Source: a virus
IMG/VR virus record: IMGVR_UViG_3300042301_003793
Reading direction: 5' to 3' (one strand)
DNA: 64,000 nucleotides
Of this stretch, positions 8,094 to 47,696 are shown piece after piece. The translations under genes were made by a program, and so were the position numbers. How positions within the stretch are numbered: the first letter of the stretch is position 1; every line of letters begins with the position of its first letter. Under the pieces are notes generated by a model. It was not told the origin of the DNA and ran no database searches. It worked only from the letters and a program-made list of their open reading frames with translations.

Positions 8094-8145
8094 ATAGTTG
8101 ATATTTTAATTAAATATGGGTATATTTTTTCTTATAAAATTAATT

Positions 8146-9360
8146 ATGGAAAAGATAAATGTACTAGTACTCCCTAGTGACCAATCAGGAGTAGGAAAAT
8201 TCAGATCAGTTGACCCCCACGTTAAATTACAAAATATGTATCCAGATGATTTCCATGTGGATATTGACTACGAACCAAAAATAAATGATATAAATTACTG
8301 GAAAAAATACCAAATTGTACATTTTCATAGAAGTATCGGGACTGATTATGATAACTGCCCTAACATAATAAAAATGTTACAATCAATGGGTATTGTTGTT
8401 GTTGCTGATATTGATGATTATTGGTTACCAACAAAAGAACATCCGATTCATCAGTTGATTATTCAAAACAAATTACACGAAAAGATAACAACAAATCTTA
8501 AAGCGGCTGATTGTGTTATTACAACAACAGAACTTTTTGCAAATGAGATAAAAAAATACAATAAAAATGTAATTGTATTACCAAATGCTGTTGACCCAGC
8601 TGACCCACAATTTAATGAACCAACACCAACGTCTGATAAAATTAGAATTGGTTGGCTAGGTGGTTCTTCACACTTACACGATTTAAAATTACTTGATGGT
8701 ATGGTTTCTAAACTTTCACCATTCCAAGATAAATTACAATATTATGTTTGTGGTTTTGATATTCGTGGTACTGTAACAGAAATTAACCAACAAACAGGAC
8801 AAAAAACACAAAGATCAATAAAACCAGAAGAAACTGTTTGGGTTAAATACGAACAAATTTTTACAGACAATTACAAAATTATTACACCAAAGTACAAAGA
8901 TTATTTAGATACATTTACAGAAAATGATTATCCTGGTGTTTTAGATGAAAACTATGTTAGAGTTTGGACAAGACCTGTCACAAGTTATGCAAAAAACTAT
9001 TCTAAATTTGATATTTCTTTAGCACCAATTAAAAACCATATCTTTAACCGAATGAAGTCTCAACTTAAAGTTATTGAGGCTGGGTTTTATAAAAAAGCAT
9101 TAATTGCATCAAATGTTGGTCCCTACACGATTGATTTAAAACATGCACTTAAGAATGGACAATTTACAGATGGAAACGCATTACTTGTAAATGAAAATAA
9201 TAATCACAGTGATTGGGCAAAAAATATTAAAAAGTTAGTTGAAAATCCTAATATGATTACAGATCTTGGTGAAAGATTGTATGAAACAGTAAAGGATAGA
9301 TACGACTTAAATAAAGTTACAGAAACAAGAGCACAATTTTACAAATCTTTAATTAAATAA
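8146..9360 (+). CDS. GT-B fold glycosyltransferase (GT4-like)
   Basis: VADIDDYW, VLPNA, RIGWLGG and DISLAP...KSQLKVIEAG...LIASNVGPY acceptor/donor motifs; start taken at MEKINV. Confidence 0.75.
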   Translation: MEKINVLVLPSDQSGVGKFRSVDPHVKLQNMYPDDFHVDIDYEPKINDINYWKKYQIVHFHRSIGTDYDNCPNIIKMLQSMGIVVVADIDDYWLPTKEHPIHQLIIQNKLHEKITTNLKAADCVITTTELFANEIKKYNKNVIVLPNAVDPADPQFNEPTPTSDKIRIGWLGGSSHLHDLKLLDGMVSKLSPFQDKLQYYVCGFDIRGTVTEINQQTGQKTQRSIKPEETVWVKYEQIFTDNYKIITPKYKDYLDTFTENDYPGVLDENYVRVWTRPVTSYAKNYSKFDISLAPIKNHIFNRMKSQLKVIEAGFYKKALIASNVGPYTIDLKHALKNGQFTDGNALLVNENNNHSDWAKNIKKLVENPNMITDLGERLYETVKDRYDLNKVTETRAQFYKSLIK

Positions 9361-9362
9361 AA

Positions 9363-10064
9363 ATGATTAATATTCCAATAACAAAAATTTTATTTCTAGA
9401 TATTGAAACTGTTGGTGGTTGTCCAGATTTTGAATCCTGTCAAAAGTTTAGTCCAGAAATTGCGGACCAGTTTAATAAATATTTTGATTGGTTTTTAAAA
9501 AGATTTCCAGAAGACAATGGTTTAACAAAAGACGAAGTTTTTACAAAAAGAGCGGCACTTGTTCCAGAGTTTGCAAAAATTGTTTGTGTATCTGTTGCAT
9601 TTGTTTTAGATAACGGCGAAACAAAAAAACAATCTTTTTCTGGTGAAGATGAAAAAAAACTATTAAAAGAAGTTAGAACATTACTTGATAGATGTGAAAA
9701 CCTTGGGTTTTATCTTTGCGGTCATAACTTAAAGAATTTTGATATTCCGATGCTTGCAAAAAGAATGATTATAAATGGAATCCGCCCCTCAAAAATTCTT
9801 CCGTCTTATGATACAAAACCTTGGGAAATAAAAGCAATTGATACAAAAGAAATTTGGCAGTATGGTTCTTATACATCAATAGGTTCTTTAGATTTATTAT
9901 GTTCTTGTCTTAATATACCAACACCAAAGGACGGTGAAATAACTGGTGCTAATGTACATTCTGCATACTGGGAAGAACAAAAAATAAAAGAAATTACAGA
10001 ATACTGTGAAAAAGATGTGGAGGTATTAATCGAAGCAATAATGAAATTAAAAAGTTTAGAATGA
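9363..10064 (+). CDS. PolB-like 3'-5' exonuclease (DEDD family)
   Basis: ExoI FLDIET, ExoII GHNLKNFDIP, ExoIII YCEKDV motifs. Confidence 0.8.
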   Translation: MINIPITKILFLDIETVGGCPDFESCQKFSPEIADQFNKYFDWFLKRFPEDNGLTKDEVFTKRAALVPEFAKIVCVSVAFVLDNGETKKQSFSGEDEKKLLKEVRTLLDRCENLGFYLCGHNLKNFDIPMLAKRMIINGIRPSKILPSYDTKPWEIKAIDTKEIWQYGSYTSIGSLDLLCSCLNIPTPKDGEITGANVHSAYWEEQKIKEITEYCEKDVEVLIEAIMKLKSLE

Positions 10065-10624
10065 GTGATAATATAGAAAATTTGTTTGACGATTCAATCG
10101 CAGATATTGATTACAATAAAATATTAAATGAATTTGGAATAGACGTTGAAACCCTTGAAAAAGAACTTGGTGTTTATCAACCGACAATAGATTTAAAATT
10201 TTCAAAAGAAAACAATGGAGTATTAACGCCAGAATACGCATATCCATCAGATTCTGGATTTGATTTATATTCAACAGAAGAATTAACAATTGAACCATTT
10301 GGAAGAGTATTAGTACCGACCGGATTACGAGTTGATATACCAGAAAATTATGAAATCCAAGTTAGATCAAAAAGTGGTTTGGCACTTAAACAAGGATTGA
10401 TGGTTTTAAATTCACCAGGTACTGTTGACCAGGGATATACAGGTGAAATTAAAGTTATACTTTTTAACACAACAAATAGTAATGTAAAAATATTAAAAGG
10501 ACAAAAGGTCGCACAAGCTGTTTTATGTCCTGTTGTTAGCGGAAGGTGGGTTAGATTAAAAGAAATTAAAAACGTAGAAGACAAAGATAGGTCTGATAAA
10601 GGATTTGGAAGTACAGGAATATGA
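10061..10624 (+). CDS. dut: Trimeric dUTPase
   Basis: Motifs DSGFDL, QVRSKSGLA, GTVDQGYTGEIKV, KVAQAV, RSDKGFGSTG. Confidence 0.95.
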   Translation: MSDNIENLFDDSIADIDYNKILNEFGIDVETLEKELGVYQPTIDLKFSKENNGVLTPEYAYPSDSGFDLYSTEELTIEPFGRVLVPTGLRVDIPENYEIQVRSKSGLALKQGLMVLNSPGTVDQGYTGEIKVILFNTTNSNVKILKGQKVAQAVLCPVVSGRWVRLKEIKNVEDKDRSDKGFGSTGI

Positions 10625-12145: not shown

Positions 12146-12907
12146 ATGATAGATTTTAAAGACGTAACTTTCATTATCCCAGTAAGGTTTGATAGTGAAG
12201 ATAGAAAAAGAAATTTTAGAATTACAATTGCATTTCTAGAAAAACATTTTGATACCAACATAATTGTTATGGAGTCAGACAAGACTTCAAATGAAGAATT
12301 TGTTAAATCAATATCAGAAAAATTAACTTATGTTTTTGAAAAAAATGATAGTCATTTATTTCATAGAACAAAAATGTTAAATGATATGACCAAGATGTCT
12401 AAAACAAATTTTGTTGTAAACTACGATATTGATGTTTTATTTAAACCAGAACAGTACGTTGCATCTAGATTTGCCTTGGGTACTGGTGCTGATTTTGTTT
12501 TTCCGTATGCTGGTAAATTCTATGATATACCACCAACATATTTTGATAATATATCAAATAACGAATTTGATAAGATTAGTTTAGACTCTTGTACATTATT
12601 TAATCCAAATTCATTGGGTGGTGCAATATTCTTTAAAAAAGACTCTTACACTAAAATTGGTTTGGAAAATGAAAACTTTGTTTCCTGGGGTCACGAAGAC
12701 TGGGAAAGAATTGGAAGAATAGAAAAAATGGGTCATAAAATTTATCGAATAGATGGTGTATTATATCATTTAACACACCAAAGAACACATAACAGTTCTG
12801 ATGCAAACCCTATGTATAACCATAATGGAAATGAATATAGAAAAGTTATGTCGATGAATAGAGAACAATTAGTGGAACACATAAAAACTTGGGATTGGAT
12901 TAAATGA
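12146..12907 (+). CDS. GT-A fold glycosyltransferase (GT2/galactosyltransferase-like)
   Basis: TFIIPVR, NYDIDV (DxD), LGGAIFF...ENENFVSWGHED C-terminal motif. Confidence 0.8.
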   Translation: MIDFKDVTFIIPVRFDSEDRKRNFRITIAFLEKHFDTNIIVMESDKTSNEEFVKSISEKLTYVFEKNDSHLFHRTKMLNDMTKMSKTNFVVNYDIDVLFKPEQYVASRFALGTGADFVFPYAGKFYDIPPTYFDNISNNEFDKISLDSCTLFNPNSLGGAIFFKKDSYTKIGLENENFVSWGHEDWERIGRIEKMGHKIYRIDGVLYHLTHQRTHNSSDANPMYNHNGNEYRKVMSMNREQLVEHIKTWDWIK

Positions 12908-13671
12908 TTGGCGTTAATTTAGCTGGAGGTTTAGGGAACTACTTGTTTCAAATATCAGCGGCATACAGTTTTGCTCTTGATAACAATGACAGTTTAGTGG
13001 TTGATGAAAGTAAAATTGTAACAGTTCATAAACACATGTCAACCTACAAAACTAATATTTTTAGAAATTTAAACTATGGTTTAGTTTTTTATGAAAACCA
13101 ATATCAAGAACCATTTTTTCATTATAAAAAAATTCCGAACTTAAAAAATTTATTTATAAATGGGTATTTTCAGAGTGAAAAATATTTTTTAAAATACCGT
13201 GAAGAATTATTAAAATTATTTTCAATTGATGATTTTAATAAAAGTTTACTTGAAAAAAAATATGGTCATATTGATTTTGAGGATTCCTGTTCTATTCACG
13301 TTCGTCGAGGTGATTATTTAAAATATGCAAATATACACCCAACTTTAACACCAGAGTACTACCAAAAATGTATTAGTGAAACTACATCTAAAAACATATT
13401 AATTTTTTCTGATGATATTTTGTGGTGTAAAGAAAATTTAATTTTCCAGGATAAAAATGTAATTTTTATTGAGGGGAATACAGACTATAATGATTTATGG
13501 TTAATGTCTATGTGTCGTGAAAATGTTATTGCAAATTCTACATTTTCTTGGTGGGGCGCTTGGTTAAATAATAACAAAAACAAAAAAGTGTTTGCACCAA
13601 AAATTTGGTTTGGTGCGCATTCAAAACACATTACAGATGATTTAATACCAAAAGAATGGAAAAAAATATAA
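12904..13671 (+). CDS. GT11 alpha-1,2-fucosyl/colitosyltransferase
   Basis: GGLGNYLFQ, GYFQSEKYF, HVRRGDY, IFSDD, IANSTFSWWGAWL: all hallmark GT11 motifs. Confidence 0.92.
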   Translation: MIGVNLAGGLGNYLFQISAAYSFALDNNDSLVVDESKIVTVHKHMSTYKTNIFRNLNYGLVFYENQYQEPFFHYKKIPNLKNLFINGYFQSEKYFLKYREELLKLFSIDDFNKSLLEKKYGHIDFEDSCSIHVRRGDYLKYANIHPTLTPEYYQKCISETTSKNILIFSDDILWCKENLIFQDKNVIFIEGNTDYNDLWLMSMCRENVIANSTFSWWGAWLNNNKNKKVFAPKIWFGAHSKHITDDLIPKEWKKI

Positions 13672-14414
13672 AAGCGACAACGTTGGGTACTTTACACAAA
13701 GAACTTTTTTTTAATAAAAAAGTTTCAATAGCTTTTGATTTACCAACAACTATAGTCGATGCCGACTTTAAGGTTCTGGTACAGATAGAACCACCATCAA
13801 TTAAAGACATAGTACAAATGATTATATATAGTCAAAATAAATTTGATATAATTTTTGCTTGGAATAATGACATACTTAATAAATGTCCGAATAGTGTTTT
13901 ATTCCCTTTTGGGTCTTGTTGGATTAATGAAGAAGACCAAAAAATAAATGAAAAGACAAAAGAAATTTCAATTATAGCCTCACCCGCAAGCAGAACAGTT
14001 GGTCATAAATTAAGACACGACATTATACAAAGTAATATTATGGAATTGGATTTATTTGGTGGTGGTTATAATCCGATTGAAAATAAAATTACTGCACTTA
14101 AAGATTACAGGTTCTCAATCATTATTGAAAATGAAAAAATAGACAACTGGTTTACAGAAAAAATTATAGATTGTCTTATGACCGGAACAATTCCTATTTA
14201 TTGGGGATGTCCAAATATTGGTAATTATTTTGATACTAGGGGTTTTATAATTGTAGATTCCATTGAGGAGTTAATATCTAAAAAAAATATGTTAAACGAA
14301 ACTACATATTCTGAAATGTTACCCTATATTAAAATTAACTTTGAATTGGCAAAAAAATATACGGATTTTTGGTCAAGAATAGAAGAAGAAATAAATAAAA
14401 AATTAAACGCATGA
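13656..14414 (+). CDS. GT10-like (alpha-1,3/4-fucosyltransferase-like) protein
   Basis: YRFSIIIENEKIDNWFTEKIIDCLMTGTIPIYWG matches the GT10 signature. Confidence 0.8.
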   Translation: MEKNIKATTLGTLHKELFFNKKVSIAFDLPTTIVDADFKVLVQIEPPSIKDIVQMIIYSQNKFDIIFAWNNDILNKCPNSVLFPFGSCWINEEDQKINEKTKEISIIASPASRTVGHKLRHDIIQSNIMELDLFGGGYNPIENKITALKDYRFSIIIENEKIDNWFTEKIIDCLMTGTIPIYWGCPNIGNYFDTRGFIIVDSIEELISKKNMLNETTYSEMLPYIKINFELAKKYTDFWSRIEEEINKKLNA

Positions 14415-16438: not shown

Positions 16439-16963
16439 ATGATAGTAGGAGAATACACATACGGACAACAAAATATTAAAAAAATTTTTGTAAATGAGTT
16501 TCCTAACGTAAATTTAATAATTGGTAAATTTTGTAGTATTGCTTCAAATGTTAGTGTATATTACGGACATGGTTACCACGATTCAAATAATGTATCAACC
16601 TACCCTTTTGGGTATGTTCATAATAATATTTTTTTATCTAACAAATTAAACAACGGTAAAACAAATGGTGATATAATTATCGGCAATGATGTGTGGATAG
16701 GAGATAACGTTACCATAATGAGTGGTTGTAAGATTGGGGATGGTTCAGTTTTAGCAACTAATTCTCATGTTGTTAATAATGTTCCGCCTTATTCTATATA
16801 TGGTGGTAATCCCGCTAAATTAATTAAGTATCGTTTTGATGAGGATACTATTGAAAAACTGATGTTAATAAAATGGTGGAATTGGGATTTGGAAAAAATT
16901 AAACAAAATCTTCATTTATTAAATAATAATAATATAAATAAATTTATTGAGTCACATTTATGA
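16439..16963 (+). CDS. Hexapeptide-repeat O-acetyltransferase (CatB/Vat-related)
   Basis: IGKFCSIA, STYPF, IIIGNDVWIG, GGNPAKLIKYRF, KWWNW. Confidence 0.88.
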   Translation: MIVGEYTYGQQNIKKIFVNEFPNVNLIIGKFCSIASNVSVYYGHGYHDSNNVSTYPFGYVHNNIFLSNKLNNGKTNGDIIIGNDVWIGDNVTIMSGCKIGDGSVLATNSHVVNNVPPYSIYGGNPAKLIKYRFDEDTIEKLMLIKWWNWDLEKIKQNLHLLNNNNINKFIESHL

Positions 16964-17895
16964 AAATATTAATAACTGGTGGTGCTGGTTTTATTGGTAC
17001 CAAAATTTGTAATAAATTAAAAGAAAGTTTTGAAATAATTGTTTTAGATAATTTTTCAGAACAGGTACACGGTAATGAAAAACCAAAGTTACTTGAAGGT
17101 GTTGAATACGTTTTTGGCGATGTTACAAATATTGATGACTGGAAAAAGGTTATATCAAAAAACCCAGACTATATTATTCATCTGGCGGCAGAAACTGGTA
17201 CTGGACAATCTATGGATGAAATCACTAGATATGTTAATACCAATGTTGTAGGAACTTCAGTTATGTTAGAATTTTTAAACAAAAATGAAAATAATGTAAA
17301 AAAAATAATTCTATCATCAACAAGGGCAGTTTATGGTGATTTGGAAAATAACTCTGAAACATCAATAGTCGACCCAAAATCTGTTTATGCTGTAACAAAA
17401 CTTGCTCAAGAAAACTTAATAAAAACATCAAGTAAAGTTCCTTATACAATTTTAAGATATCAAAATGTTTTTGGTGATGGGCAAAGTTTAAATAACCCGT
17501 ACACTGGTATCATAAGTATTTTTAGTAATTTATTTTTAGAGAATAAATCGGTTACGATATTTGATAATGGAATACCGACAAGAGATTTTATTTATGTTGA
17601 GGATGTTGTAGATGTAACAATAAAATGTTTAGAAAACACCTCAACTAATTATAAAACATATGACGTTGGTACTGGGACTGAAATAAAAATTTTAGATGTT
17701 ACACATAAACTAAAAAAATTGTCTAATAGTACATCTGAAATTATAATAACTGATTACCATAGAGATGGTGATATAATGTTTGCTAAAGCTAACACAACAA
17801 AAATAAAAACTGATTTAAATTGGGAACCAAAATTTACAATTGAAGATGGGTTAAAATTTTTTTATAATTGGTTTAAAGCGGAAAAAAATTTATGA
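16960..17895 (+). CDS. NAD-dependent nucleotide-sugar epimerase/dehydratase
   Basis: ITGGAGFIG, HLAA, YAVTK (YxxxK), LRYQNVFG, RDFIYV. Confidence 0.88.
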   Translation: MKILITGGAGFIGTKICNKLKESFEIIVLDNFSEQVHGNEKPKLLEGVEYVFGDVTNIDDWKKVISKNPDYIIHLAAETGTGQSMDEITRYVNTNVVGTSVMLEFLNKNENNVKKIILSSTRAVYGDLENNSETSIVDPKSVYAVTKLAQENLIKTSSKVPYTILRYQNVFGDGQSLNNPYTGIISIFSNLFLENKSVTIFDNGIPTRDFIYVEDVVDVTIKCLENTSTNYKTYDVGTGTEIKILDVTHKLKKLSNSTSEIIITDYHRDGDIMFAKANTTKIKTDLNWEPKFTIEDGLKFFYNWFKAEKNL

Positions 17896-18800
17896 AAATA
17901 TTAATAACTGGTGGTAGTGGTTTAGTTGGTAACAACTTAAAAAAATATCTCCCAGATGGTATTTATCTTTCCTCAAAAGATTATGATTTAACAAAAGAAT
18001 CGGATGTAATTAGTATGTTTGAAAATCATAAACCAAATGTTGTAATTCATTTAGCGGCAAAGGTTGGTGGTATTTTAGACAACATAAATAAACCAGCAGA
18101 ATATTTTACAGAAAATGTTTTAATGAATACTTTATTAATTGAGTATGCAAGAAAATATAATGTAGACAGATTTATTGGGATTTTGAGTACTTGTATCTTT
18201 CCAGATATTATGGAATCCTACCCGATGAAAGAAACAGATTTACACTTTGGCCCACCAACAAGTACTAATTTTTCATATGGGTATGCAAAAAGAAGTATGG
18301 CAGTACAAATAGATGCGTACAACAAACAATATGGTACAAAATATCAATACTTAATTCCTTGTAATTTATATGGGTTAGGTGATAAAGACCACGAATCTAA
18401 TAGTCATTTTATTACAGCATTGGTTAAAAAAATTTTTATAGCAAAACAAAATAATGAAAAACATATAACCTTATTTGGTGATGGTACACCATTAAGACAG
18501 TTTATGTTTGCCGATGATTTTGCAAAAATAATATATGAAGTAATTACCAAAAATATTTATGAAAATTTTAATATTGCCGGTAATGAAAATTTAACAATAA
18601 AAAAAATGGCTGAAATTGCTTTAGACTCTTGTGATGCCAAAGATTTGGAAATAAGGTGGGATTTAACAAAACCAAATGGTCAATATAGAAAGGATGTTTG
18701 TACAAATAAATTAAAATCTTTACTAGCAGAATTTGAACCATTATCCTTATCTCAAGGAATAAAATTAGTTTATAAAAGTTATTATGATAAAGTTAGTTAA
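17892..18800 (+). CDS. fcl: GDP-L-fucose synthase-family epimerase/reductase (ColC role likely in this context)
   Basis: ITGGSGLVG, HLAAKVGGI, STCIFP, YGYAKR, PCNLYG, SHFITAL, GDGTPLRQF. Confidence 0.88.
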   Translation: MKILITGGSGLVGNNLKKYLPDGIYLSSKDYDLTKESDVISMFENHKPNVVIHLAAKVGGILDNINKPAEYFTENVLMNTLLIEYARKYNVDRFIGILSTCIFPDIMESYPMKETDLHFGPPTSTNFSYGYAKRSMAVQIDAYNKQYGTKYQYLIPCNLYGLGDKDHESNSHFITALVKKIFIAKQNNEKHITLFGDGTPLRQFMFADDFAKIIYEVITKNIYENFNIAGNENLTIKKMAEIALDSCDAKDLEIRWDLTKPNGQYRKDVCTNKLKSLLAEFEPLSLSQGIKLVYKSYYDKVS

Positions 18801-19935
18801 CGACACAATAAATAAAGAAGATATTAATGCTCTAGTTGAATGGTTATCTCAAGATGAAATACCTAGATTAACTAAGGGTGATTTAACATTAAAGTTGGAG
18901 GATTTATGGGCGAAAAAAATTGGAACAAAATATTCTGTATTTGTTAATTCTGGATCTTCCTCAATACTTCTTGCCCTTGCCGCACTTAAGTATTCAAATA
19001 AATTAAAGAATGAAAAAGTTGTTGTTCCAGGTTTGAGTTGGGCAACAGATGTTAGTTCACCAATGTTACTTGGTATGCAACCAATTATGTGTGATTGTAA
19101 TTTAGATGATTTATCTTGTGATTTAGAAAATCTAGAACAAATCTTTAAAACAGAATCACCATCGACACTAATATTAGTGTCGCCATTAGGGTTAGTACCA
19201 GATATGGAAAAAATAGTTTCAATGTGTGAAAAATATGATGTTATATTATTGGAAGATGTTTGTGAAAGCATGGGATCTAAACACAAAGAAAGATATTTAG
19301 GTTCTTTTGGTTTTGCATCATTTTTTTCAATGTATTTTGGTCACCATTTAAGTACTATTGAAGGTGGGTTTATCAACACAAATGATGAAGATTTTTACCA
19401 CACATTACTAATGATGAGAAGTCACGGTTGGGATAGAGATTTACCAAAAGAAAAACAAATCGAATTAAGACAAAAATATAATGTGGATGATTTTGATTCT
19501 TTGTATAATTTTTATTTACCAGGTTTTAATTTGAGGTCAACAGACTTACAAGCGTTTATTGGTTTAAGAGCTATTGAAAAATTGGATGGGTATTCAAAAA
19601 GAAGAAATCAAAACTTTTTTGAGTATAGAAATAATATTAAAATAAACGAACTTACAATACCAATTAATGAAACTAATTTTATATCAAATTTTGCATATCC
19701 AATTGTATCATTAAATAAAAAAGAAATTGTTAGTAGGTTAATTGAAAATGGTGTTGAGGTACGTCCTTTGATTGCTGGTAATATGTCAAATAAACCTATG
19801 TGGTATGAAAACTATGGGCTTGTTAGTTTACCAAATTGTGAAAAAGTAAATGAGTATGGTTTTTATATTCCAAACCACCAAAATCTTACATCAGAAGAAA
19901 TAAACTTTATTTGTAAAATAATTAATAATGCATAG
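18784..19935 (+). CDS. colD: ColD-like GDP-4-keto-6-deoxy-D-mannose 3-dehydratase (PLP-dependent, DegT/DnrJ fold)
   Basis: EDVCESMG, SMYFGHHLSTIEGG (His at the position of the Schiff-base Lys of aminotransferases), HGWDRDLP, FYLPGFNLR; lacks the Cys cluster of E1/RfbH. Confidence 0.8.
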   Translation: MIKLVNDTINKEDINALVEWLSQDEIPRLTKGDLTLKLEDLWAKKIGTKYSVFVNSGSSSILLALAALKYSNKLKNEKVVVPGLSWATDVSSPMLLGMQPIMCDCNLDDLSCDLENLEQIFKTESPSTLILVSPLGLVPDMEKIVSMCEKYDVILLEDVCESMGSKHKERYLGSFGFASFFSMYFGHHLSTIEGGFINTNDEDFYHTLLMMRSHGWDRDLPKEKQIELRQKYNVDDFDSLYNFYLPGFNLRSTDLQAFIGLRAIEKLDGYSKRRNQNFFEYRNNIKINELTIPINETNFISNFAYPIVSLNKKEIVSRLIENGVEVRPLIAGNMSNKPMWYENYGLVSLPNCEKVNEYGFYIPNHQNLTSEEINFICKIINNA

Positions 19936-20707
19936 ATTATATAAACCCGCCAGGTCTAAAGAGGCAAACAGAGGTTTATTTTCATATCTAACAGAATCTG
20001 TGTTAAATATGGTAAACTTTATTAAGTTAAATGGGGACGTTGATATAAAATATTATCACGATTTGTTTGATATACCGGGTTACGGAAATAAAAATATGTT
20101 TGACATCTCTTTATTTCAAGACGAAAATGATTTTAAAGTAAATAATCATCTTTACACAAATATAGAATTGTTTCCAAACGATTTAAACCTTGATTGTTAT
20201 AATGTAGAAAACCTTAATCAGGATATTAGATTGATAAGTGAAAAAATAATCAAAGATTTTTTTATACCTAATGAAACTTTAAATGAATTATTTAATAAAA
20301 GACATAGTCAAATTAACTTTAATACAACCGTTGGGGTTCATAGGAGATCAACAGATATTTGGAGTCACTATAAAATTGTAAACATAGAAGATATTTTTAA
20401 TGAGGTTGAGTCTAATGAATTTGATAATGTTTTTTTAATGTGTGATAACATTTATGACACCAATAAATTTAAACTAAGATATGGGAATAAGCTAATAACT
20501 TATGATATGTTTACTTCCAAAAATATGATTTTACCTTTTTTTAAAATAAATAACCCAATTGAAGATATCCATAATCATATTATGGAGTTACTATTCGGAG
20601 TTTTTACGTTATCTAAAACAAAAAATTTTATATGCACAAAATCTAACATTTCTTCTTTTTGTATTTTATCTAATTCTAAATTAAACTATAAATTACTTAC
20701 TAAATGA
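19928..20707 (+). CDS. O-fucosyltransferase-like protein (NodZ/GT23-like)
   Basis: N-terminal RGLFS, VGVHRRSTD, VFLMCD, FICTKSNIS fit the fucosyltransferase motif I-III layout. Confidence 0.6.
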   Translation: MHRLYKPARSKEANRGLFSYLTESVLNMVNFIKLNGDVDIKYYHDLFDIPGYGNKNMFDISLFQDENDFKVNNHLYTNIELFPNDLNLDCYNVENLNQDIRLISEKIIKDFFIPNETLNELFNKRHSQINFNTTVGVHRRSTDIWSHYKIVNIEDIFNEVESNEFDNVFLMCDNIYDTNKFKLRYGNKLITYDMFTSKNMILPFFKINNPIEDIHNHIMELLFGVFTLSKTKNFICTKSNISSFCILSNSKLNYKLLTK

Positions 20708-21705
20708 AAATAGCGCTTATAACAGGAATAAATGGACAGGATGGTTCATATCTAGCAGAATTTTTGCTTAATAAAGGGTATGAAGTACACGGAACTTTAA
20801 AAAGAAATTCAGTTTCTGAAAACCAAACATCAAGACTTGATGATATTTATGACCAACTAAAATTACATTATGCTGATTTAACAGATTTGTCATCTTTAAT
20901 TAATGTTATACAAAAAACAAAACCAAACGAAATTTATAATTTGGCAGCACAATCACATGTTCGTATTTCATTTGACCAACCAATATATACTGCAAACGCT
21001 ACTGGTTTAGGAACATTGAATATGTTAGAAGCAATTAAACTTGTTGACCCAACAATTAAGTTATACCAAGCGTCTTCTTCTGAAATGTTTGGAAACAATA
21101 TTGATGAAGACGGATACCAAAGGGAATCAACACCGATGTCTCCAGTATCACCTTACGGATGTGCAAAAGTATTTTCATATAACATTTGTAGAAACTATAG
21201 AAATTCTTACAATATGTTTATATCAAATGGAATTTTATTTAATCACGAATCACCAAGACGTGGAACAAACTTTGTAACAAATAAGGTTTGTAAGGAAGCG
21301 GTAAAAATTAAACTAGGTTTATCAAACCAATTAAAACTTGGTAATTTAGATGCTACAAGAGATTGGGGACATGCAAAAGATTATGTTGAGGCAATGTGGA
21401 TGATATTACAACAAGATGTTCCAGACGATTTTGTTTGCTCAACAGGGATTTCTCACTCAGTAAAAGAACTTGTTGAATATGTGTTTAATAAGTTAGAGTT
21501 AGACTGGAAAAAATATTTAACAATTGATGAAAAATTTTATAGACCCGAAGAACTTTCCGATTTGAAGGGTGACTCAAAAAAACTAAGGGATATCACCGGG
21601 TGGACACCGACGTATACGTTCGAAACAATGCTAGACGAGATGATAGACTATTGGCTAAACAAACTAAAAAAAGACTATGACCAGAAAGAAAGTTACACAG
21701 AATGA
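20704..21705 (+). CDS. gmd: GDP-mannose 4,6-dehydratase
   Basis: ALITGINGQDGSYLAEFLL, YNLAAQSHV, YQASSSEMFG, SPYGCAK, GILFNHESPRRG, RDWGHAKDYV. Confidence 0.97.
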   Translation: MKIALITGINGQDGSYLAEFLLNKGYEVHGTLKRNSVSENQTSRLDDIYDQLKLHYADLTDLSSLINVIQKTKPNEIYNLAAQSHVRISFDQPIYTANATGLGTLNMLEAIKLVDPTIKLYQASSSEMFGNNIDEDGYQRESTPMSPVSPYGCAKVFSYNICRNYRNSYNMFISNGILFNHESPRRGTNFVTNKVCKEAVKIKLGLSNQLKLGNLDATRDWGHAKDYVEAMWMILQQDVPDDFVCSTGISHSVKELVEYVFNKLELDWKKYLTIDEKFYRPEELSDLKGDSKKLRDITGWTPTYTFETMLDEMIDYWLNKLKKDYDQKESYTE

Positions 21706-22408
21706 TGAATCAGAATCAAAACCATTTTCAAGAAAAGAATTTATAAACTCTGTAATTAAAAAAAGACAAAAAAATAAATTTTTATCAGAACATCAGGAAA
21801 CTTACTATGACATATTAAAATCAAATGAAATAACAATAGCTTCTGGACCTGCTGGAGTTGGTAAATCATTTATTGCAATGAAAGCAGCTGTTGATTTACT
21901 TATGGACCCAAATAATTCATATGAAAAAATCATAATTGTTAGACCCGCGGTTGAGGCCGAAGAAAAACTTGGGGCACTTCCTGGTAACCTAGAAGAAAAG
22001 TTAGATCCATATATTTTTCCATCTTATTATCTTTTAAATAAAATTATCGGTAAAGACGCTAGAGAAAAATTAAAAGATGCTGAAATCATTGAGGTATTTG
22101 CTCTTGCATATATGAGAGGTATGAATATAGACAATTCAATCCTGATATTTGAAGAAGCACAAAATTCAACACCAAATCAAATGAAGTTACTCTTGACAAG
22201 AATAGGTTACAATAGTAAATTCTTTATATCTGGAGACTTAGAACAAACTGATAGATATAAAGACAAAAGACAATCTGGACTTTATGATGCCATACAAAGA
22301 TTTAATGGTATTCCAGATATTGGTGTTTATGATTTTAGAAATGCTAAAAATGTTCGTAACCCATTAATTAGTAAAATTTTAGCAAAATATGATGAAAATA
22401 GGGATTGA
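21677..22408 (+). CDS. phoH: PhoH-family ATPase
   Basis: GPAGVGKS, RPAVEA, LGALPG, AYMRG, EEAQN, GDLEQTD, VRNPL. Confidence 0.95.
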   Translation: MTRKKVTQNDESESKPFSRKEFINSVIKKRQKNKFLSEHQETYYDILKSNEITIASGPAGVGKSFIAMKAAVDLLMDPNNSYEKIIIVRPAVEAEEKLGALPGNLEEKLDPYIFPSYYLLNKIIGKDAREKLKDAEIIEVFALAYMRGMNIDNSILIFEEAQNSTPNQMKLLLTRIGYNSKFFISGDLEQTDRYKDKRQSGLYDAIQRFNGIPDIGVYDFRNAKNVRNPLISKILAKYDENRD

Positions 22409-39786: not shown

Positions 39787-41661
39787 TTATCTCAATTCTC
39801 TTAAATCAAATGTACGAACACCATCAACAGTAATACGGGCGTAAAATCTGTTGTTCACCATTTTTTTCGCATATCTAGTCATTATACCTTTGATAGGTGT
39901 AAAGTTGAATGGGTTATACATTGTAGGTGTCAATTGTAGAGGTACATACGGTGCGTAGATGTAACCTGTGTCTAATAAAGACGTTCCTTTGTGACCCAAC
40001 AATACTGTGTTTGGTGGGAAGTAAGGGTCTCTATACACTTGGTAACGACCAGCTAAAGTACCAACTCTCTCAATACCCATGTTGTATTGGTCTTGCTCAG
40101 GAGACGCGTTAGATACGTGGAAGTATTCTAAGTCATCAAAGATTGCAGAAACCTCAGAAGATACAACAATCCAGTTAGCACCACCTCTCAAAGTTGATTT
40201 GTGAATTTGTGCAGACAATTGGTTGATTGCAGTAATCAAAGTTTGGTTCCAATCTTTTTGAGTGTAAGAAGTTGTTTGTGCAATTCTTCTCCATCCGTTG
40301 TAATCCCATCTCAAGTTCCAAGCAGCACCTTTTCTCAAATCTCTCAAGATTTCTCTATCAATTTCAGCAGCAACTTGCTCAGAAAGTAATGCTGTAAGTT
40401 CAGCTTCAGCATCAATGTTATGGAATGCAGCAACGTCTTGAGCAAGCTCTGGAGACCATTGTGCTCTTAATTTTCTTTCAGATACAGAAACTGTTACAGA
40501 CTCTAAATCAAAAGAAACTTCTCCGATTTTTTCTTCAAATTCTAGTTCTTCATATCTTCTCCATACAGCTGTAAATGATGTACCAGAAGTAATTGCAGAA
40601 ATAGAAGAACCTGTGTATCCGTCTAATGAATCGCTACCACAGCTAGCACAAGCAGGACAAGAAAGGTCAACTTCTAAGAAGATACAACCATTTGCATCAC
40701 AGATATCGTAGAAAGATCCACCATTACCTGTGTTAGATGCAGTTCCTGAAGGACTTCCACCAGGGAAATAAGTTTGTGATTGTTGACCATATTCTACAAT
40801 TCCTTTACCATACTTTTGAGTTACAACTCTAAATAAAAGTGGTGTAGCGGCTGTAGGTAATGGACAAGTATTTCCAGATGCAAAACCTAAACCAGTGTAA
40901 TTTGGTAAGATTTTCAAATCTGAAAGGAAAGTTTCAGAATCAATCTCATTTCCATCAGGTCCGATTAATTTACCTGCACCTGGTACATTATTCCACCCAC
41001 AAAGTCTGATAAGAACTTTTCTTGTGTTACCAATATATTGTGGGTTATTGTCACCAGCGTTAACTAAGTCACCATTAGACCAAACAACAACTGTTGATGG
41101 AGCTGTAATTGCAGACCAACGACCTTTTGAATAGTCAAATAATCCACCTGGATCTAATCCTGGTTCAGCACCTTCGTAGAATAAATCATAAAGATTTTTT
41201 GCGTAAGGATATCCATTGTTATAACCTTGTTGTGGGTCATTTTGTGGTGGAGTTGCAGATACTGCTTCTGGAGATCCAATTGGTGGATAATGAACCGCAT
41301 TACCTGTAGTTATGTCAGTAGCATATCCTTGGATTTTAGGTACGAAGTAGAACAATTTACCAATTGGTAAGTTCATAGCTTGTACAGATACGATATCGTT
41401 AGCTAATAATTTAGAGAATACTCTTCTAACGATAGGGAAAACAACAGTTTCGAAAGCTCCGTTTGAACCTTCAGAAGTTGCTTCGTTAATTAAGTGAGAC
41501 GCTTGGTTTTCATACAACTGCGCAACGTTCTCTTTTAAATGTCCTTTAAGACCTTCTAGGAATCCTAATCTATCCCATTTGTTAATTGTATCTTCTTTGA
41601 TAACTTTAAGGTGTTTTAACCCAATGTTACCAACAAGACCTGATTCTAATAATGCTCCCAT
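39787..41661 (-). CDS. Major capsid protein (T4 gp23 family)
   Basis: LENQ-like LYENQA, IVSVQAMNLPIGKLFY, RKLRAQWSPELAQDV, EIDREI, YAPYVPL, MTRYA. Confidence 0.95.
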   Translation of the reverse strand: MGALLESGLVGNIGLKHLKVIKEDTINKWDRLGFLEGLKGHLKENVAQLYENQASHLINEATSEGSNGAFETVVFPIVRRVFSKLLANDIVSVQAMNLPIGKLFYFVPKIQGYATDITTGNAVHYPPIGSPEAVSATPPQNDPQQGYNNGYPYAKNLYDLFYEGAEPGLDPGGLFDYSKGRWSAITAPSTVVVWSNGDLVNAGDNNPQYIGNTRKVLIRLCGWNNVPGAGKLIGPDGNEIDSETFLSDLKILPNYTGLGFASGNTCPLPTAATPLLFRVVTQKYGKGIVEYGQQSQTYFPGGSPSGTASNTGNGGSFYDICDANGCIFLEVDLSCPACASCGSDSLDGYTGSSISAITSGTSFTAVWRRYEELEFEEKIGEVSFDLESVTVSVSERKLRAQWSPELAQDVAAFHNIDAEAELTALLSEQVAAEIDREILRDLRKGAAWNLRWDYNGWRRIAQTTSYTQKDWNQTLITAINQLSAQIHKSTLRGGANWIVVSSEVSAIFDDLEYFHVSNASPEQDQYNMGIERVGTLAGRYQVYRDPYFPPNTVLLGHKGTSLLDTGYIYAPYVPLQLTPTMYNPFNFTPIKGIMTRYAKKMVNNRFYARITVDGVRTFDLRELR

Positions 41662-43701: not shown

Positions 43702-44418
43702 TTATTTACCCAAATAATCGGATAATCTTTTCATTAAGTCAAGAGATTTGTTACCAGATCCACCAACATTTCTTTCTACGGTCATTCTTTTTTCTTCTTC
43801 TAAATTCTCATCAAATTTATGTCTATCATTTTTATCTAAAAATAAATAAGCACCAGGTGTTGACGGTGAAGAAACTAAATCAAAACAAATTAATTCAAAA
43901 TCATCTTGTACTTCATTTTGTTCCCCAACTTTTTTAAGTGACCCAACACCTCTAGAAGAAATGCCAAGTGTTACACCTTGTCTAAGATAGTTTGCCGCCA
44001 TATCACCTTTTGTTGATACAATCCCTCTTTCGTGAAAACCTGGACTTGTAAGTAATTTTAATTTACCCAATAATACTGGTCCGTCCCACCATACTTCGGT
44101 AATCATATGTGATACCCTATCAAGATCAATTAAAGAAGATTCAGGGTGGTTAAGTTCTGAAAGGGATGTTCCTTTCTCAATCATCTTTTTATAATTCTCA
44201 GCTTCTCTTTTTAATATCTTTTCTGGATAAACCCTACCATTTCTATTTGGGGTATCGTATTTTTGTAATACGGCATAGAACTCAAATGGTTTTGAATAAT
44301 CCAAGAAGTTTTGAGATTCCATAATGTAATGGTTATTTTGTGATTTTGGATTTATATATCCAGCGTCATATTCGATAAGGATTCCTTTACCAGTTTCGTT
44401 TGGTCCTAAAATTTTCAT
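43702..44418 (-). CDS. Prohead core protease (T4 gp21-like)
   Basis: PNRNGRVYPEKIL, SELNHP (His), VSHMIT, GISSRGVGS (Ser), DLVSSPS. Confidence 0.92.
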   Translation of the reverse strand: MKILGPNETGKGILIEYDAGYINPKSQNNHYIMESQNFLDYSKPFEFYAVLQKYDTPNRNGRVYPEKILKREAENYKKMIEKGTSLSELNHPESSLIDLDRVSHMITEVWWDGPVLLGKLKLLTSPGFHERGIVSTKGDMAANYLRQGVTLGISSRGVGSLKKVGEQNEVQDDFELICFDLVSSPSTPGAYLFLDKNDRHKFDENLEEEKRMTVERNVGGSGNKSLDLMKRLSDYLGK

Positions 44419-45911: not shown

Positions 45912-47696
45912 TCAATCTTTAAGTATTTTTAATAATTCATTTTCCATATCACCAAGAGAACTATTTTTTATTATAAAATCATCATCATTTGATTCTAATA
46001 ATAGGTTTTCTAGTTTAGCTCTACTTTCTGGTAAACCACCTAAATCACCTCCTCCTGGCGGTGGTGGTGGTCCTCCTCCTGGTGGTGGTCCTCCTCCTGG
46101 TGGTGGTGCTCCTCCAGCTGCTTCTCCACCTTCAGTTGTTCCACTTACAGTTTTATATAATTTATCGATATTATCAAACAAACCAGTATGAGTAATAATT
46201 GTTGCGGTATTTGCAAGTTCTGCCGCAACAGCTCTTTCCATTCTTTGTCTTTGAGTATCCAGTTTAATATCCTCATCTGAAAACCCAAAAATGTGTTTTT
46301 TAGCCCAAGTAGCAGATGTTGGTGCTAATGTATTTGGGATTTCTGTAACCATATCTTTGTATAGTGTTACTTTTTCTTTCCACACATCAACCATTAAAAG
46401 GTCTGCTTGTTTTGATGGATTATTTAACCCTAAAGTAAAGTTTTGTAATTCATCTTCAAAACCTAATAGAAATAAATGAATGATTGCAACTTTATTTAAT
46501 TCTGATAAAATATTTTTTTGTATTCTATTAATTGTTCTTGCAAAACGAATATCAAGTAATGATAAGTTTTTACCATCACCAACAACTTCTTCAAAACCTA
46601 AATAAGCTTTTGGTATTCTTAGTGCTGTAACAAGTTTCTTTTGGATGTACTCAATATCCGCAATTTCCGATAGATTTGTTCCACCTGGCAAAGTTTCAAT
46701 TGGCATTGTTTGTGTTGCATCTCTTACTGGAATAAAATAATCTTGGTCAACAGCCATTTGATTAAACCTTAAATCGACATTACCTGTTTTAGAATCAACA
46801 ACCTGATCTCTTTTAAATTTGTTTGCAACACGTTGTACATATGGTTCAACATCTTTATCATCCATATTTCCAACAAATACTTTAAAAACCCTTCTTTCTG
46901 GTGCTCTAGATGTACGATAAATTAACATCGCATCTTCGGCCAATACAAGTTGTTTCCAAATACGTCTTGCTTTTTCAAGCATAGATGTACCATAAGGAAG
47001 TTTTCTATCATCACCAAGTAATCTAAAGTGTGCAATTTCAAAAGTGTTGAAAGACATATTCTTTTCTTTCCAGTTAAACCTTAATCCTTTTTCAGCTGGG
47101 TTATTTTCAGAATTTGCCGTCTTTGGCGTCATCCCCCTTTCTAATCTTTCAATCTCGATGTTTGGTAATTGTACACCACCAATAATTCCTTTTTCAGGGT
47201 CTAATTTTAAATAAACAAAATTATCACCATACTTACAAGTGTTTCTAATCCACATTTGTAAGTTTGTGTTAATATCTAATGTGTTATTAAATAAATCTGC
47301 AAGAATTGCTTTTATTCTTTTTGATTCAGAATATATTTGTAAAATATGTCCGTCTTCATTTGGGGTTGTAGATTCTTCAGCGTATATATCAAGTGCTGTT
47401 GAAATTTCTGGTGTGAACTCCATAGATTCGTAATCATAAAATGCCGCTAGTCTTGTTGGTTCGTAATAAATTGCTTGAGTATAAAGATTGCTTTCTATTT
47501 TTTGCCATTGATTTGATAAATATAGTGTTTGTTGAGCTTGGAGTTTTTCCTTCTCAAATTCATTTTTATCTCTTGTTTTTAATAGGTCTTGTTTACTAAA
47601 CTTATGTGTTGGTACATCTTGTCCTAATAATGAATTAGGACCAAATGCTTTATTAAGTCTTTGCCAAACTGTAAGTTGATTTGTATTTTGTTCCAT
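45912..47696 (-). CDS. Portal protein (T4 gp20-like)
   Basis: EISTALD, YGTSMLEKARRIWKQL.LAEDAMLIYR..RAPERRVF, DYFIP, IETLPGG, ALRIP; Pro/Gly-rich tail with 18-bp repeats. Confidence 0.93.
   Translation of the reverse strand: MEQNTNQLTVWQRLNKAFGPNSLLGQDVPTHKFSKQDLLKTRDKNEFEKEKLQAQQTLYLSNQWQKIESNLYTQAIYYEPTRLAAFYDYESMEFTPEISTALDIYAEESTTPNEDGHILQIYSESKRIKAILADLFNNTLDINTNLQMWIRNTCKYGDNFVYLKLDPEKGIIGGVQLPNIEIERLERGMTPKTANSENNPAEKGLRFNWKEKNMSFNTFEIAHFRLLGDDRKLPYGTSMLEKARRIWKQLVLAEDAMLIYRTSRAPERRVFKVFVGNMDDKDVEPYVQRVANKFKRDQVVDSKTGNVDLRFNQMAVDQDYFIPVRDATQTMPIETLPGGTNLSEIADIEYIQKKLVTALRIPKAYLGFEEVVGDGKNLSLLDIRFARTINRIQKNILSELNKVAIIHLFLLGFEDELQNFTLGLNNPSKQADLLMVDVWKEKVTLYKDMVTEIPNTLAPTSATWAKKHIFGFSDEDIKLDTQRQRMERAVAAELANTATIITHTGLFDNIDKLYKTVSGTTEGGEAAGGAPPPGGGPPPGGGPPPPPGGGDLGGLPESRAKLENLLLESNDDDFIIKNSSLGDMENELLKILKD

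What the first reader, a model, noticed from the sequence alone, without database searches (positions are those of the whole stretch)
17892..21705. Apparent complete phage-encoded GDP-L-colitose pathway (gmd + colD + colC/fcl)
Seen: the DegT-fold gene has GHHLSTIEGG with His at the catalytic-Lys position, plus EDxCESMG and HGWxRxLP, and no Fe-S Cys cluster. Established: this His substitution defines ColD; Gmd, ColD and ColC make GDP-L-colitose (3,6-dideoxy-L-galactose) in e.g. E. coli O55/O111 and V. cholerae O139. Automated annotation would call it an aminotransferase. A rare 3,6-dideoxyhexose pathway in a phage is unusual. ManB/ManC are not in this window.
Basis: partly seen in the sequence, partly recalled or inferred. 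Interest (0 to 1): 0.82.

Follow-up and report, generated by a model that had tools for sequence, protein, structure and literature searches.

The report
Phage GDP-colitose sugar pathway cassette
A large T4-like phage from lake water carries, in one tightly packed operon, the three enzymes that most likely turn the host's GDP-mannose into the rare 3,6-dideoxy sugar colitose, plus fucosyltransferase-type enzymes to attach it. The chemistry is known from bacterial O-antigens, and the same cassette sits unrecognised in many aquatic phages.

Summary
ORF 18784-19935 is a DegT-fold enzyme whose motif GHHLSTIEGG has His187 aligned to the catalytic His188 of E. coli ColD. It keeps only one of the four E1-type Fe-S cysteines. 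It overlaps an Fcl/ColC-family reductase (17892-18800). One gene further on lies a Gmd that passes the curated equivalog cut-off (20704-21705). The unnamed ORF between them (19928-20707) folds as a FUT8/NodZ-type GDP-fucose transferase.

The window is a tailed phage, with a gp23 capsid protein, gp20 portal and TerL, and it recurs in lake metagenomes.

In trees the phage enzyme sits on the ColD side of the E1/RfbH split. It falls in a large uncharacterised 'GHH' sister clade, not in the canonical E. coli ColD clade. That clade also holds CDP-linked SAR11 enzymes, so GDP specificity rests on the Gmd linkage.

Among related phage contigs seeded on Gmd, Fcl-like types A and B go with ColD (26 of 31). 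Type C never does (0 of 27). This looks like a fucose/colitose module swap beside a conserved gmd-phoH anchor.

Cultured cyanophages S-CAM7 and ACG-2014f carry the same cassette. I found no paper calling it colitose. This scan has already reported the cassette on other phage DNA many times. The product has not been assayed.

The parts
20704..21705 (+). Gmd, GDP-mannose 4,6-dehydratase (333 aa). Step 1: GDP-mannose to GDP-4-keto-6-deoxy-D-mannose.
   Evidence: TIGR01472 equivalog 417.7 bits against cut-off 415; PF16363 402 bits. 45% identical to E. coli O55 Gmd. Catalytic S125/E127/Y151/K155 align to E. coli T133/E135/Y157/K161.
18784..19935 (+). ColD-type PMP-dependent GDP-4-keto-6-deoxymannose 3-dehydratase (383 aa). 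Step 2: removes the 3-OH.
   Evidence: Best PDB hit is E. coli ColD 2gms at 201 bits, against E1 101 and PerA 94. His187 equals ColD His188. ColD positions G56, S57, W88, D159, E162, S183, H188, H189, R219, N248, R250, E329 and R331 are all matched; S187 is Gly. No E1 Cys triad. Lies in the Fe-S-free His-type clade (99/93) sister to canonical ColD.
17892..18800 (+). Fcl/ColC-family SDR (302 aa). Proposed GDP-L-colitose synthase: C5 epimerase plus C4 reductase, step 3.
   Evidence: NF047922 GDP-fucose synthase 199 bits, below cut-off 500. Best PDB hit is human GDP-fucose synthase, 193 bits. S99/C101/Y129/K133/H172 match E. coli GMER S107/C109/Y136/K140/H179. Overlaps colD by 17 nt in the same colC-colD order as E. 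coli O55. This Fcl type co-occurs with ColD in related phages.
19928..20707 (+). GT23-like (FUT8/NodZ fold) GDP-6-deoxyhexose transferase (259 aa) inserted between colD and gmd.
   Evidence: No Pfam or NCBIfam hit. AF2 model pLDDT 94, pTM 0.92. Foldseek top hits are all GDP-fucose transferases: FUT8 at E 5e-8 and TMq 0.67, then NodZ, POFUT1/2 and AtFUT1. H138-R139-R140-x-x-D143 is invariant in 38 homologues. Found in only a minority of related loci.
12904..13671 (+). GT11-family alpha-1,2-fucosyl/colitosyl-transferase homologue (255 aa).
   Evidence: PF01531 105 bits. Orthologues in related phage loci score 115-146 bits to E. coli O55 WbgN or the O126 FucT2.
13656..14414 (+). GT10-like fucosyltransferase homologue (252 aa).
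   Evidence: PF00852 C-terminal domain, 33.7 bits, E 3.7e-8.
21677..22408 (+). PhoH-like ATPase. Overlaps gmd by 29 nt and forms the conserved gmd-phoH anchor of the island. Not part of the sugar chemistry.
   Evidence: PF02562 209.7 bits. Conserved next to Gmd in 50 of 73 Gmd-seeded phage loci.
16960..17895 (+). GalE-type UDP-hexose 4-epimerase-like SDR. Neighbour in the operon, not part of the colitose route.
   Evidence: Best PDB hit is UDP-glucose 4-epimerase 4zrm, 145 bits. Only 34 bits to the gmd model. Present in only 2 of 26 related loci at above 60% identity.

Best explanation
During infection the phage takes GDP-mannose from its host and converts it in three steps. Gmd makes GDP-4-keto-6-deoxy-D-mannose. 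The ColD-type enzyme, using PMP and His187 as acid/base, expels the 3-hydroxyl; it releases GDP-4-keto-3,6-dideoxy-D-mannose and ammonia and is recharged by glutamate, so no reductase partner is needed. The Fcl-family enzyme then epimerises C5 and reduces C4 with NAD(P)H to give GDP-L-colitose. Soluble GT11-, GT10- and GT23-type transferases in the same island then attach the L-6-deoxyhexose to an acceptor. Shown here: the identity and catalytic residues of the three enzymes, the operon structure, conservation across phages, and the transferase fold. Inferred: the substrate nucleotide (from Gmd linkage), the stereochemistry of the product, and the acceptor. The acceptor may be virion fibres, because the island has no flippase, polymerase or initiating transferase.
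For: Gmd passes the equivalog cut-off. The DegT enzyme has ColD as its best solved relative, at twice the score of E1 or PerA. His is at the catalytic position in 147 of 151 50%-cluster representatives. The recalled ColD cofactor and phosphate-binding positions are conserved, and three of the four E1 Fe-S cysteines are missing. In the tree PerA is the outgroup, RfbH branches next, and then comes an Fe-S-free clade (99/93) holding both canonical ColD and the phage clade. No Fer2/FNR-type E3 reductase, cytidylyltransferase or CDP-glucose dehydratase was found in scanned window ORFs. The Fcl-like enzyme keeps the Ser-Tyr-Lys triad and the Cys/His epimerisation pair. All junctions from 16960 to 22408 overlap by 4-29 nt. 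Fcl-like, ColD and Gmd are kept together in 25 of the 26 ColD-seeded IMG/VR loci; L013 is cut off inside Gmd. Among Gmd-seeded relatives, Fcl types A and B occur with ColD in 26 of 31 loci and type C in 0 of 27. Three GDP-fucose-type transferase families lie in the island. The colC-colD order and overlap match E. coli O55.
Against: There is no biochemical data for any member of the 'GHH' clade. Identity to E. coli ColD is only 31%, and ColD Ser187 is Gly here. The same clade holds SAR11 enzymes flanked by a CDP-glucose 4,6-dehydratase (421 bits) and a cytidylyltransferase-like gene, so clade membership does not fix the nucleotide. The Fcl-like protein belongs neither to the canonical ColC clade nor to the canonical Fcl clade. 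It could also reduce the Gmd product directly to GDP-fucose, or give another C4/C5 stereochemistry. The ColD/Fcl-type association rests on only 3 well-supported independent contrasts on the Gmd tree (sign test p 0.25). No ManB or ManC was found, so the pathway starts at host GDP-mannose.
Confidence: 0.68

Rival explanations
1. The cassette makes a 3,6-dideoxyhexose other than L-colitose. ColD works as proposed, but the phage-type Fcl-like enzyme reduces, or epimerises and reduces, with a different stereochemical outcome.
For: The Fcl-like protein forms its own clade, separate from canonical ColC and canonical Fcl. No member of that clade has been characterised.
Against: The Cys101/His172 pair used for epimerisation in E. 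coli GMER and the Ser-Tyr-Lys triad are all kept. The neighbouring transferases belong to families that use GDP-beta-L-fucose-type donors.
Confidence: 0.14
2. The main product is GDP-L-fucose. The Fcl-like enzyme acts on the Gmd product, and the ColD-like protein is a minor branch, regulatory or inactive.
For: Gmd plus Fcl alone is a complete fucose route. About half of the related phages have Fcl next to Gmd without ColD. Cyanophage gmd plus fcl has been read as a fucose pathway (PMC9602691).
Against: The ColD gene is intact with all catalytic positions. It is conserved at 62-96% identity across contigs and overlaps both neighbours. ColD-less relatives use a different Fcl type, C, which argues that types A and B are adapted to the ColD product.
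Confidence: 0.1
3. The DegT protein is an E1/SpnQ-type 3-dehydratase acting on a CDP- or dTDP-sugar with a host reductase, and is unrelated to the adjacent Gmd.
For: JGI annotates the family as CDP-6-deoxy-D-xylo-4-hexulose-3-dehydrase. SAR11 relatives in the same clade sit beside a CDP-glucose 4,6-dehydratase. The top NCBIfam hit is RfbH, at 171 bits.
Against: The RfbH score is far below its cut-off of 423. Three of the four Fe-S cysteines are absent. No CDP-glucose dehydratase, cytidylyltransferase or E3 is in the window. Gmd lies next to ColD or within about 1.6 kb downstream of it in most related phage loci.
Confidence: 0.04
4. The DegT protein is an aminotransferase that makes a GDP-amino sugar such as GDP-perosamine.
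For: It has the DegT fold, and Pfam and RefSeq-style names say aminotransferase.
Against: The Schiff-base Lys is replaced by His. PerA-type sequences carry N-K at that position and form the outgroup.
Confidence: 0.03

Closest known systems
E. coli O55:H7 GDP-L-colitose pathway (Gmd, ColD/WbdK with PDB 2gms and 3b8x, ColC/WbdJ, GT11 colitosyltransferase WbgN)
   Same: The same three enzyme families. The same colC-colD order with overlapping genes. His at the catalytic position and no Fe-S site. A GT11 transferase is nearby.
   Different: Identity is only 31% (ColD), 34% (ColC) and 45% (Gmd). The phage ColD lies in a sister 'GHH' clade rather than the 'SHH' clade, and the phage ColC-like is in a separate clade. 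There is no manB, manC, wzx or wzy, and the cassette is carried by a virus.
E1 (RfbH/DdhC/AscC) and SpnQ, the Fe-S-dependent NDP-hexose 3-dehydratases
   Same: DegT fold, PMP cofactor, His replacing Lys, and C3 deoxygenation (PMC8987622).
   Different: E1 and SpnQ carry four Cys ligands for a [2Fe-2S] cluster and need a reductase. The window protein has one of the four and no reductase nearby. E1 scores half as high as ColD.
Cassette in the cultured cyanophages S-CAM7 (KU686213) and ACG-2014f (NC_026927)
   Same: Gmd, Fcl, a His-type (GHH) DegT and a GT11 in one run on a T4-like phage.
   Different: Gene order is gmd-fcl-DegT. Their Fcl is canonical (about 50% identical to E. coli Fcl). Their DegT sits in another GHH subclade, which suggests a separate acquisition. 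They are annotated as 'aminotransferase' or 'putative CDP-4-keto-6-deoxy-D-glucose-3-dehydrase'.
GDP-L-fucose genes of cyanophage S-SCSM1 (PMC9602691)
   Same: Phage-encoded gmd and fcl together with O-FucT-, alpha-1,2-FucT- and NodZ-type transferases.
   Different: That paper describes no 3-dehydratase and reads the genes as a fucose pathway for cell-wall modification.

Membership tests
ColD (GDP-4-keto-6-deoxy-D-mannose 3-dehydratase) | DegT/AAT fold with His in place of the Schiff-base Lys | tested here: met
   PF01041 185 bits. His187 aligns to ColD His188.
ColD (GDP-4-keto-6-deoxy-D-mannose 3-dehydratase) | No [2Fe-2S] cysteine motif and no reductase partner | tested here: met
   Only the Cys at -27 is present. 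The +31/+33/+41 cysteines seen in the RfbH reference are absent. No Fer2/FNR-type ORF was found among scanned window ORFs.
ColD (GDP-4-keto-6-deoxy-D-mannose 3-dehydratase) | Acts on a GDP-sugar, shown by genetic linkage to Gmd | tested here: met
   One operon with an equivalog-level Gmd. Kept in 25 of 26 related loci. This is linkage only, not an assay.
ColD (GDP-4-keto-6-deoxy-D-mannose 3-dehydratase) | Falls inside the clade of characterised ColD enzymes | tested here: not met
   It lies in the sister 'GHH' clade (100/97). The canonical clade with E. coli ColD is separate (100/100).
ColD (GDP-4-keto-6-deoxy-D-mannose 3-dehydratase) | Catalyses C3 deoxygenation with glutamate-dependent PMP recycling | not testable with these tools
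   Needs an enzyme assay.
ColC (GDP-L-colitose synthase) | Fcl-family extended SDR with the Ser-Tyr-Lys triad and the Cys/His epimerisation pair | tested here: met
   S99, Y129, K133, C101 and H172.
ColC (GDP-L-colitose synthase) | Groups with characterised ColC rather than Fcl | tested here: not met
   It forms a third clade. Identity is 34% to ColC and 29-33% to Fcl.
ColC (GDP-L-colitose synthase) | Co-inherited with ColD | tested here: met
   17-nt overlap with colD. Types A and B occur with ColD in 26 of 31 loci and type C in 0 of 27. Only 3 supported independent contrasts exist.
Gmd (TIGR01472) | Score above the curated equivalog cut-off, with the catalytic Ser/Thr-Glu-Tyr-Lys | tested here: met
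   417.7 bits against 415. S125/E127/Y151/K155.
E1 / RfbH (NF011936) | Score above the cut-off and the C-X57-C-X-C-X7-C Fe-S motif | tested here: not met
   171 bits against a cut-off of 423. The motif is absent.
GT23-like fucosyltransferase (ORF 19928-20707) | GT-B fold of FUT8/NodZ with the H-x-R-R-x-D GDP-binding motif | tested here: met
   Foldseek hits FUT8 at E 5e-8 and TMq 0.67, plus NodZ. H138/R139/R140/D143 are invariant. There is no sequence-family hit. The role of the motif is recalled from memory.

The most novel reading that the evidence does not exclude
Beside a conserved gmd-phoH anchor, this group of freshwater jumbo phages swaps a one-gene fucose module (Fcl type C) for a two-gene colitose module (a co-evolving ColC-like/ColD pair, types A and B), together with changing sets of GT11, GT10 and GT23 transferases. 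Because the island has no lipid-carrier machinery and lies among fibre genes, this may be a phage-encoded glycan 'serotype' system that decorates the virion itself. It would be a viral counterpart of O-antigen variation.
Probability: 0.3. Interest if true: 0.75.

Novelty: new member of a known kind. Interest (0 to 1): 0.5.

Why it matters
Colitose is known as a rare O-antigen sugar of a few Gram-negative bacteria. If this cassette works as read, the sugar is also made by a large and abundant group of aquatic phages, including culturable cyanophages, and has been missed. One reason is that annotation calls the key enzyme an aminotransferase or a CDP-sugar dehydrase. Another is that at least one large AMG catalogue discards contigs carrying LPS-type islands (PMC11360552). 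The cassette offers a testable case of viruses building their own unusual glycans. It also provides a natural fucose/colitose polymorphism for asking what phage glycans are for. Finally, it points to a large untested sister lineage of ColD and ColC enzymes that could be useful for making dideoxy sugar nucleotides.

Tried and rejected
- No whole genome is held for this window. ManC (PF00483) was sought in five related viral contigs and not found, but these are only 21-53% complete.
- Megablast of 20 kb of the window against GenBank phages found nothing.
- The first alignment of 107 sequences was too diverse for the genome-contig scan, so a 14-sequence alignment was used.
- The papers on the ColD structures could not be read. 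The roles of individual ColD residues are therefore from memory; only their conservation was tested.
- One literature search was wasted because 'ColD' matches the word 'cold'.
- Similarity alone cannot tell ColC from Fcl: 34% against 29-33% identity.
- The RNA-library run X20 (marine metatranscriptome) holds short contigs 94-98% identical to parts of colC, the colC-colD junction, colD and gmd. DNA carry-over cannot be excluded and contigs do not show transcription, so I do not count this as evidence of expression. The part of that run without cover over 19940-20580 is not interpreted.
- The independent-pairs test of the ColD/Fcl-type association had too few contrasts to be significant.
- The GalE-like SDR at 16960-17895 was considered as an alternative 4-reductase and rejected.
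Full report
**What is there**

The stated interval holds four overlapping + strand ORFs, not three:
- 17892-18800, an Fcl/ColC-family SDR of 302 aa.
- 18784-19935, a DegT-fold protein of 383 aa.
- 19928-20707, a 259-aa ORF with no family hit.
- 20704-21705, Gmd, 333 aa.

All junctions from 16960 to 22408 overlap by 4-29 nt, so this is one operon.

The window is a tailed phage. It carries a T4-type major capsid protein (39787-41661), portal (45912-47696), large terminase (48045-49817), prohead protease (43702-44418) and a GH25 lysozyme. GC content is about 29%. The stretch recurs in lake-water metagenomes, with 16 runs holding at least half of its sampled words. The nearest cultured capsid relatives are about 40% identical: Microcystis phage Mel-JY01 and Flavobacterium phage immuto.

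**The observation**

Against solved structures the best match is E. coli O55 ColD (2gms, 201 bits). E1 scores 101 bits and perosamine synthase 94. The ColD H188N and H188K mutant chains differ from wild type exactly where the first His of the window's HH aligns, so His187 corresponds to the catalytic His188.

I fetched the E. coli O55:H7 O-antigen cluster as a reference. RefSeq names its ColD 'DegT/DnrJ/EryC1/StrS family aminotransferase'. I also fetched O157 PerA and a Streptomyces RfbH. The RfbH has His220 with Cys193/251/253/261, the E1 iron-sulfur motif. The window protein keeps only the first of these four cysteines, as E. coli ColD does.

ColD positions that I recall as binding cofactor or phosphate are all matched in the window protein: G56, S57, W88, D159, E162, S183, R219, N248, R250 and R331. 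Ser187 is Gly. The review PMC8987622 confirms two points. His-for-Lys is shared by ColD, E1 and SpnQ. ColD is the one without the Fe-S cluster, and it recycles PMP with glutamate.

**Phylogeny**

The careful tree has 58 sequences and is rooted on PerA. RfbH branches first. All Fe-S-free His-type proteins then form one clade (99/93). That clade splits in two:
- The canonical ColD clade, with motif SHH, E. coli O55 ColD and nearly always a Gmd and Fcl context.
- A large 'GHH' clade (100/97).

The window protein and the IMG/VR relatives included form a tight group inside the GHH clade. The cyanophage proteins sit in a different GHH subclade. So the refutation criterion 'clusters with Lys-type aminotransferases' is not met. 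Strict membership of the characterised ColD clade is not met either; identity to E. coli ColD is 31%.

Bacterial members of the GHH clade have mixed contexts:
- Rhizobiales and roseobacters show ColD-Gmd-Fcl.
- The SAR11 locus L066 has a CDP-glucose 4,6-dehydratase (TIGR02622, 421 bits) and a cytidylyltransferase-like gene beside it.

Clade membership therefore does not fix the nucleotide. For the phage, the Gmd linkage does.

**Conservation and the module swap**

ColD-seeded scanning of IMG/VR gave 26 contigs at 62-96% identity. Of these, 25 hold Fcl-like, ColD and Gmd together, and one (L013) is cut off inside Gmd. Apart from two short MAG contigs that are probably phage, bacterial relatives reach only 48% identity or less. 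The gene is therefore an old phage lineage and not a recent host capture.

Gmd-seeded scanning gave 80 contigs at 77-94% Gmd identity. Of the 73 with enough upstream sequence, 37 carry ColD. The others mostly have an Fcl-like gene directly abutting Gmd.

The Fcl-like proteins of these contigs fall into three clades:
- Types A (which includes the window's) and B occur with ColD in 26 of 31 loci.
- Type C occurs with ColD in 0 of 27.

Contigs whose Gmd is 94% identical to the window's (L116, L117) carry type C and no ColD. This pattern fits a two-gene colC-colD module exchanging with a one-gene fcl module beside a conserved gmd-phoH anchor. It is the best available argument that 17892-18800 is a colitose synthase and not a fucose synthase. 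On the Gmd tree, however, only three well-supported independent contrasts exist, so the association is suggestive and not proven. The Fcl-like protein keeps the triad and the Cys/His epimerisation pair. That favours an L-configured product.

**Transferases**

The unnamed ORF 19928-20707 gives a confident model (pLDDT 94). Its structural neighbours are exclusively GDP-fucose-dependent transferases: FUT8, NodZ, POFUT1/2 and AtFUT1. It has an invariant H-R-R-x-x-D motif. Upstream lie a GT11 (105 bits), a GT10-like protein, several GT2s, two methyltransferases and an acetyltransferase.

No ORF between 10061 and 25990 has a transmembrane-like segment. The ORFs at 8116-9360 and 9363-10064 have one each. 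No flippase, polymerase or initiating transferase family was found. The acceptor is therefore unknown. Earlier notes on this genome proposed glycosylation of virion fibres; I did not test that.

**What is known**

The cultured cyanophages S-CAM7 and ACG-2014f carry gmd, fcl, a GHH-type DegT and a GT11 in a row. These are annotated as 'putative CDP-4-keto-6-deoxy-D-glucose-3-dehydrase' or 'aminotransferase'. The S-SCSM1 paper describes phage gmd and fcl plus three fucosyltransferase types as a fucose pathway.

None of the full-text searches combining colitose with phage, viral genomes, giant virus, cyanophage or auxiliary metabolic genes turned up a paper reporting a virus-encoded colitose route. 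This scan itself has already reported the same cassette on many other phage genomes. My conclusions agree with those notes.

**Verdict**

The most likely product is GDP-L-colitose, made from host GDP-mannose (about 0.68). The chemistry is known and the viral setting appears unpublished but widespread. The enzymes belong to untested sister lineages, and the product and acceptor remain to be shown.

Noticed in passing
proteins P0128, P0131, P0142 (homologues of window:18784-19935): Three ColD homologues (45-54% identical, 838-883 aa) carry an insert of about 450-500 residues directly after the catalytic HH motif. The insert starts with Ser, ends in His-Asn followed by Ser, and holds LAGLIDADG-like motifs. 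It looks like an intein sitting in the active site.
   Followed up: partly
L066:6031-9933 (Pelagibacteraceae SAG contig): A GHH-type, Fe-S-free ColD-like enzyme is flanked by a CDP-glucose 4,6-dehydratase (TIGR02622, 421 bits) and a cytidylyltransferase-like gene. This may be a ColD-style, reductase-independent 3-deoxygenation of a CDP-sugar in SAR11.
   Followed up: partly
L116-L195 (Gmd-seeded IMG/VR loci) compared with window:17892-21705: Upstream of a conserved gmd-phoH pair, related phages carry one of several variants: Fcl alone, ColC-like plus ColD, rare PerA-like variants (L176, L186), or unknown genes (L168-L171). The site is a hot spot for diversifying GDP-sugars.
   Followed up: partly
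window:9363-10624: A PolB-exonuclease-like protein (9363-10064) and a dUTPase/dCTP-deaminase-like protein (10061-10624) sit inside the run of glycosyltransferase genes.
   Followed up: no
window:39787-41661: The gp23-type major capsid protein is 624 aa. Only about 56% of it aligns to other T4-like capsid proteins, in two pieces, which points to a large insertion or extra domain.
   Followed up: no
window:59794-61854: A full-length two-ring ClpB/ClpA-type AAA+ ATPase (AAA_2 221 bits, ClpB_D2-small) is encoded by the phage.
   Followed up: no
window:26370-28325: A conserved 651-aa protein with no family hit and three hydrophobic, TM-like segments (residues about 427-530) follows the glycan island. 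It is the only protein with more than one such segment among the + strand ORFs scanned between 5202 and 35000.
   Followed up: no
window:32211-35000: A 929-aa protein with WD40-type beta-propeller matches (residues about 446-587) lies among large ORFs of unknown function downstream of the island.
   Followed up: no
L027 (CAXGOB010000083.1, 'Saprospiraceae' MAG contig, 20 kb): This contig carries the phage-type Fcl-ColD-Gmd cassette (71% identical ColD) and falls inside the viral clade. It is probably a phage contig binned into a bacterial MAG.
   Followed up: partly
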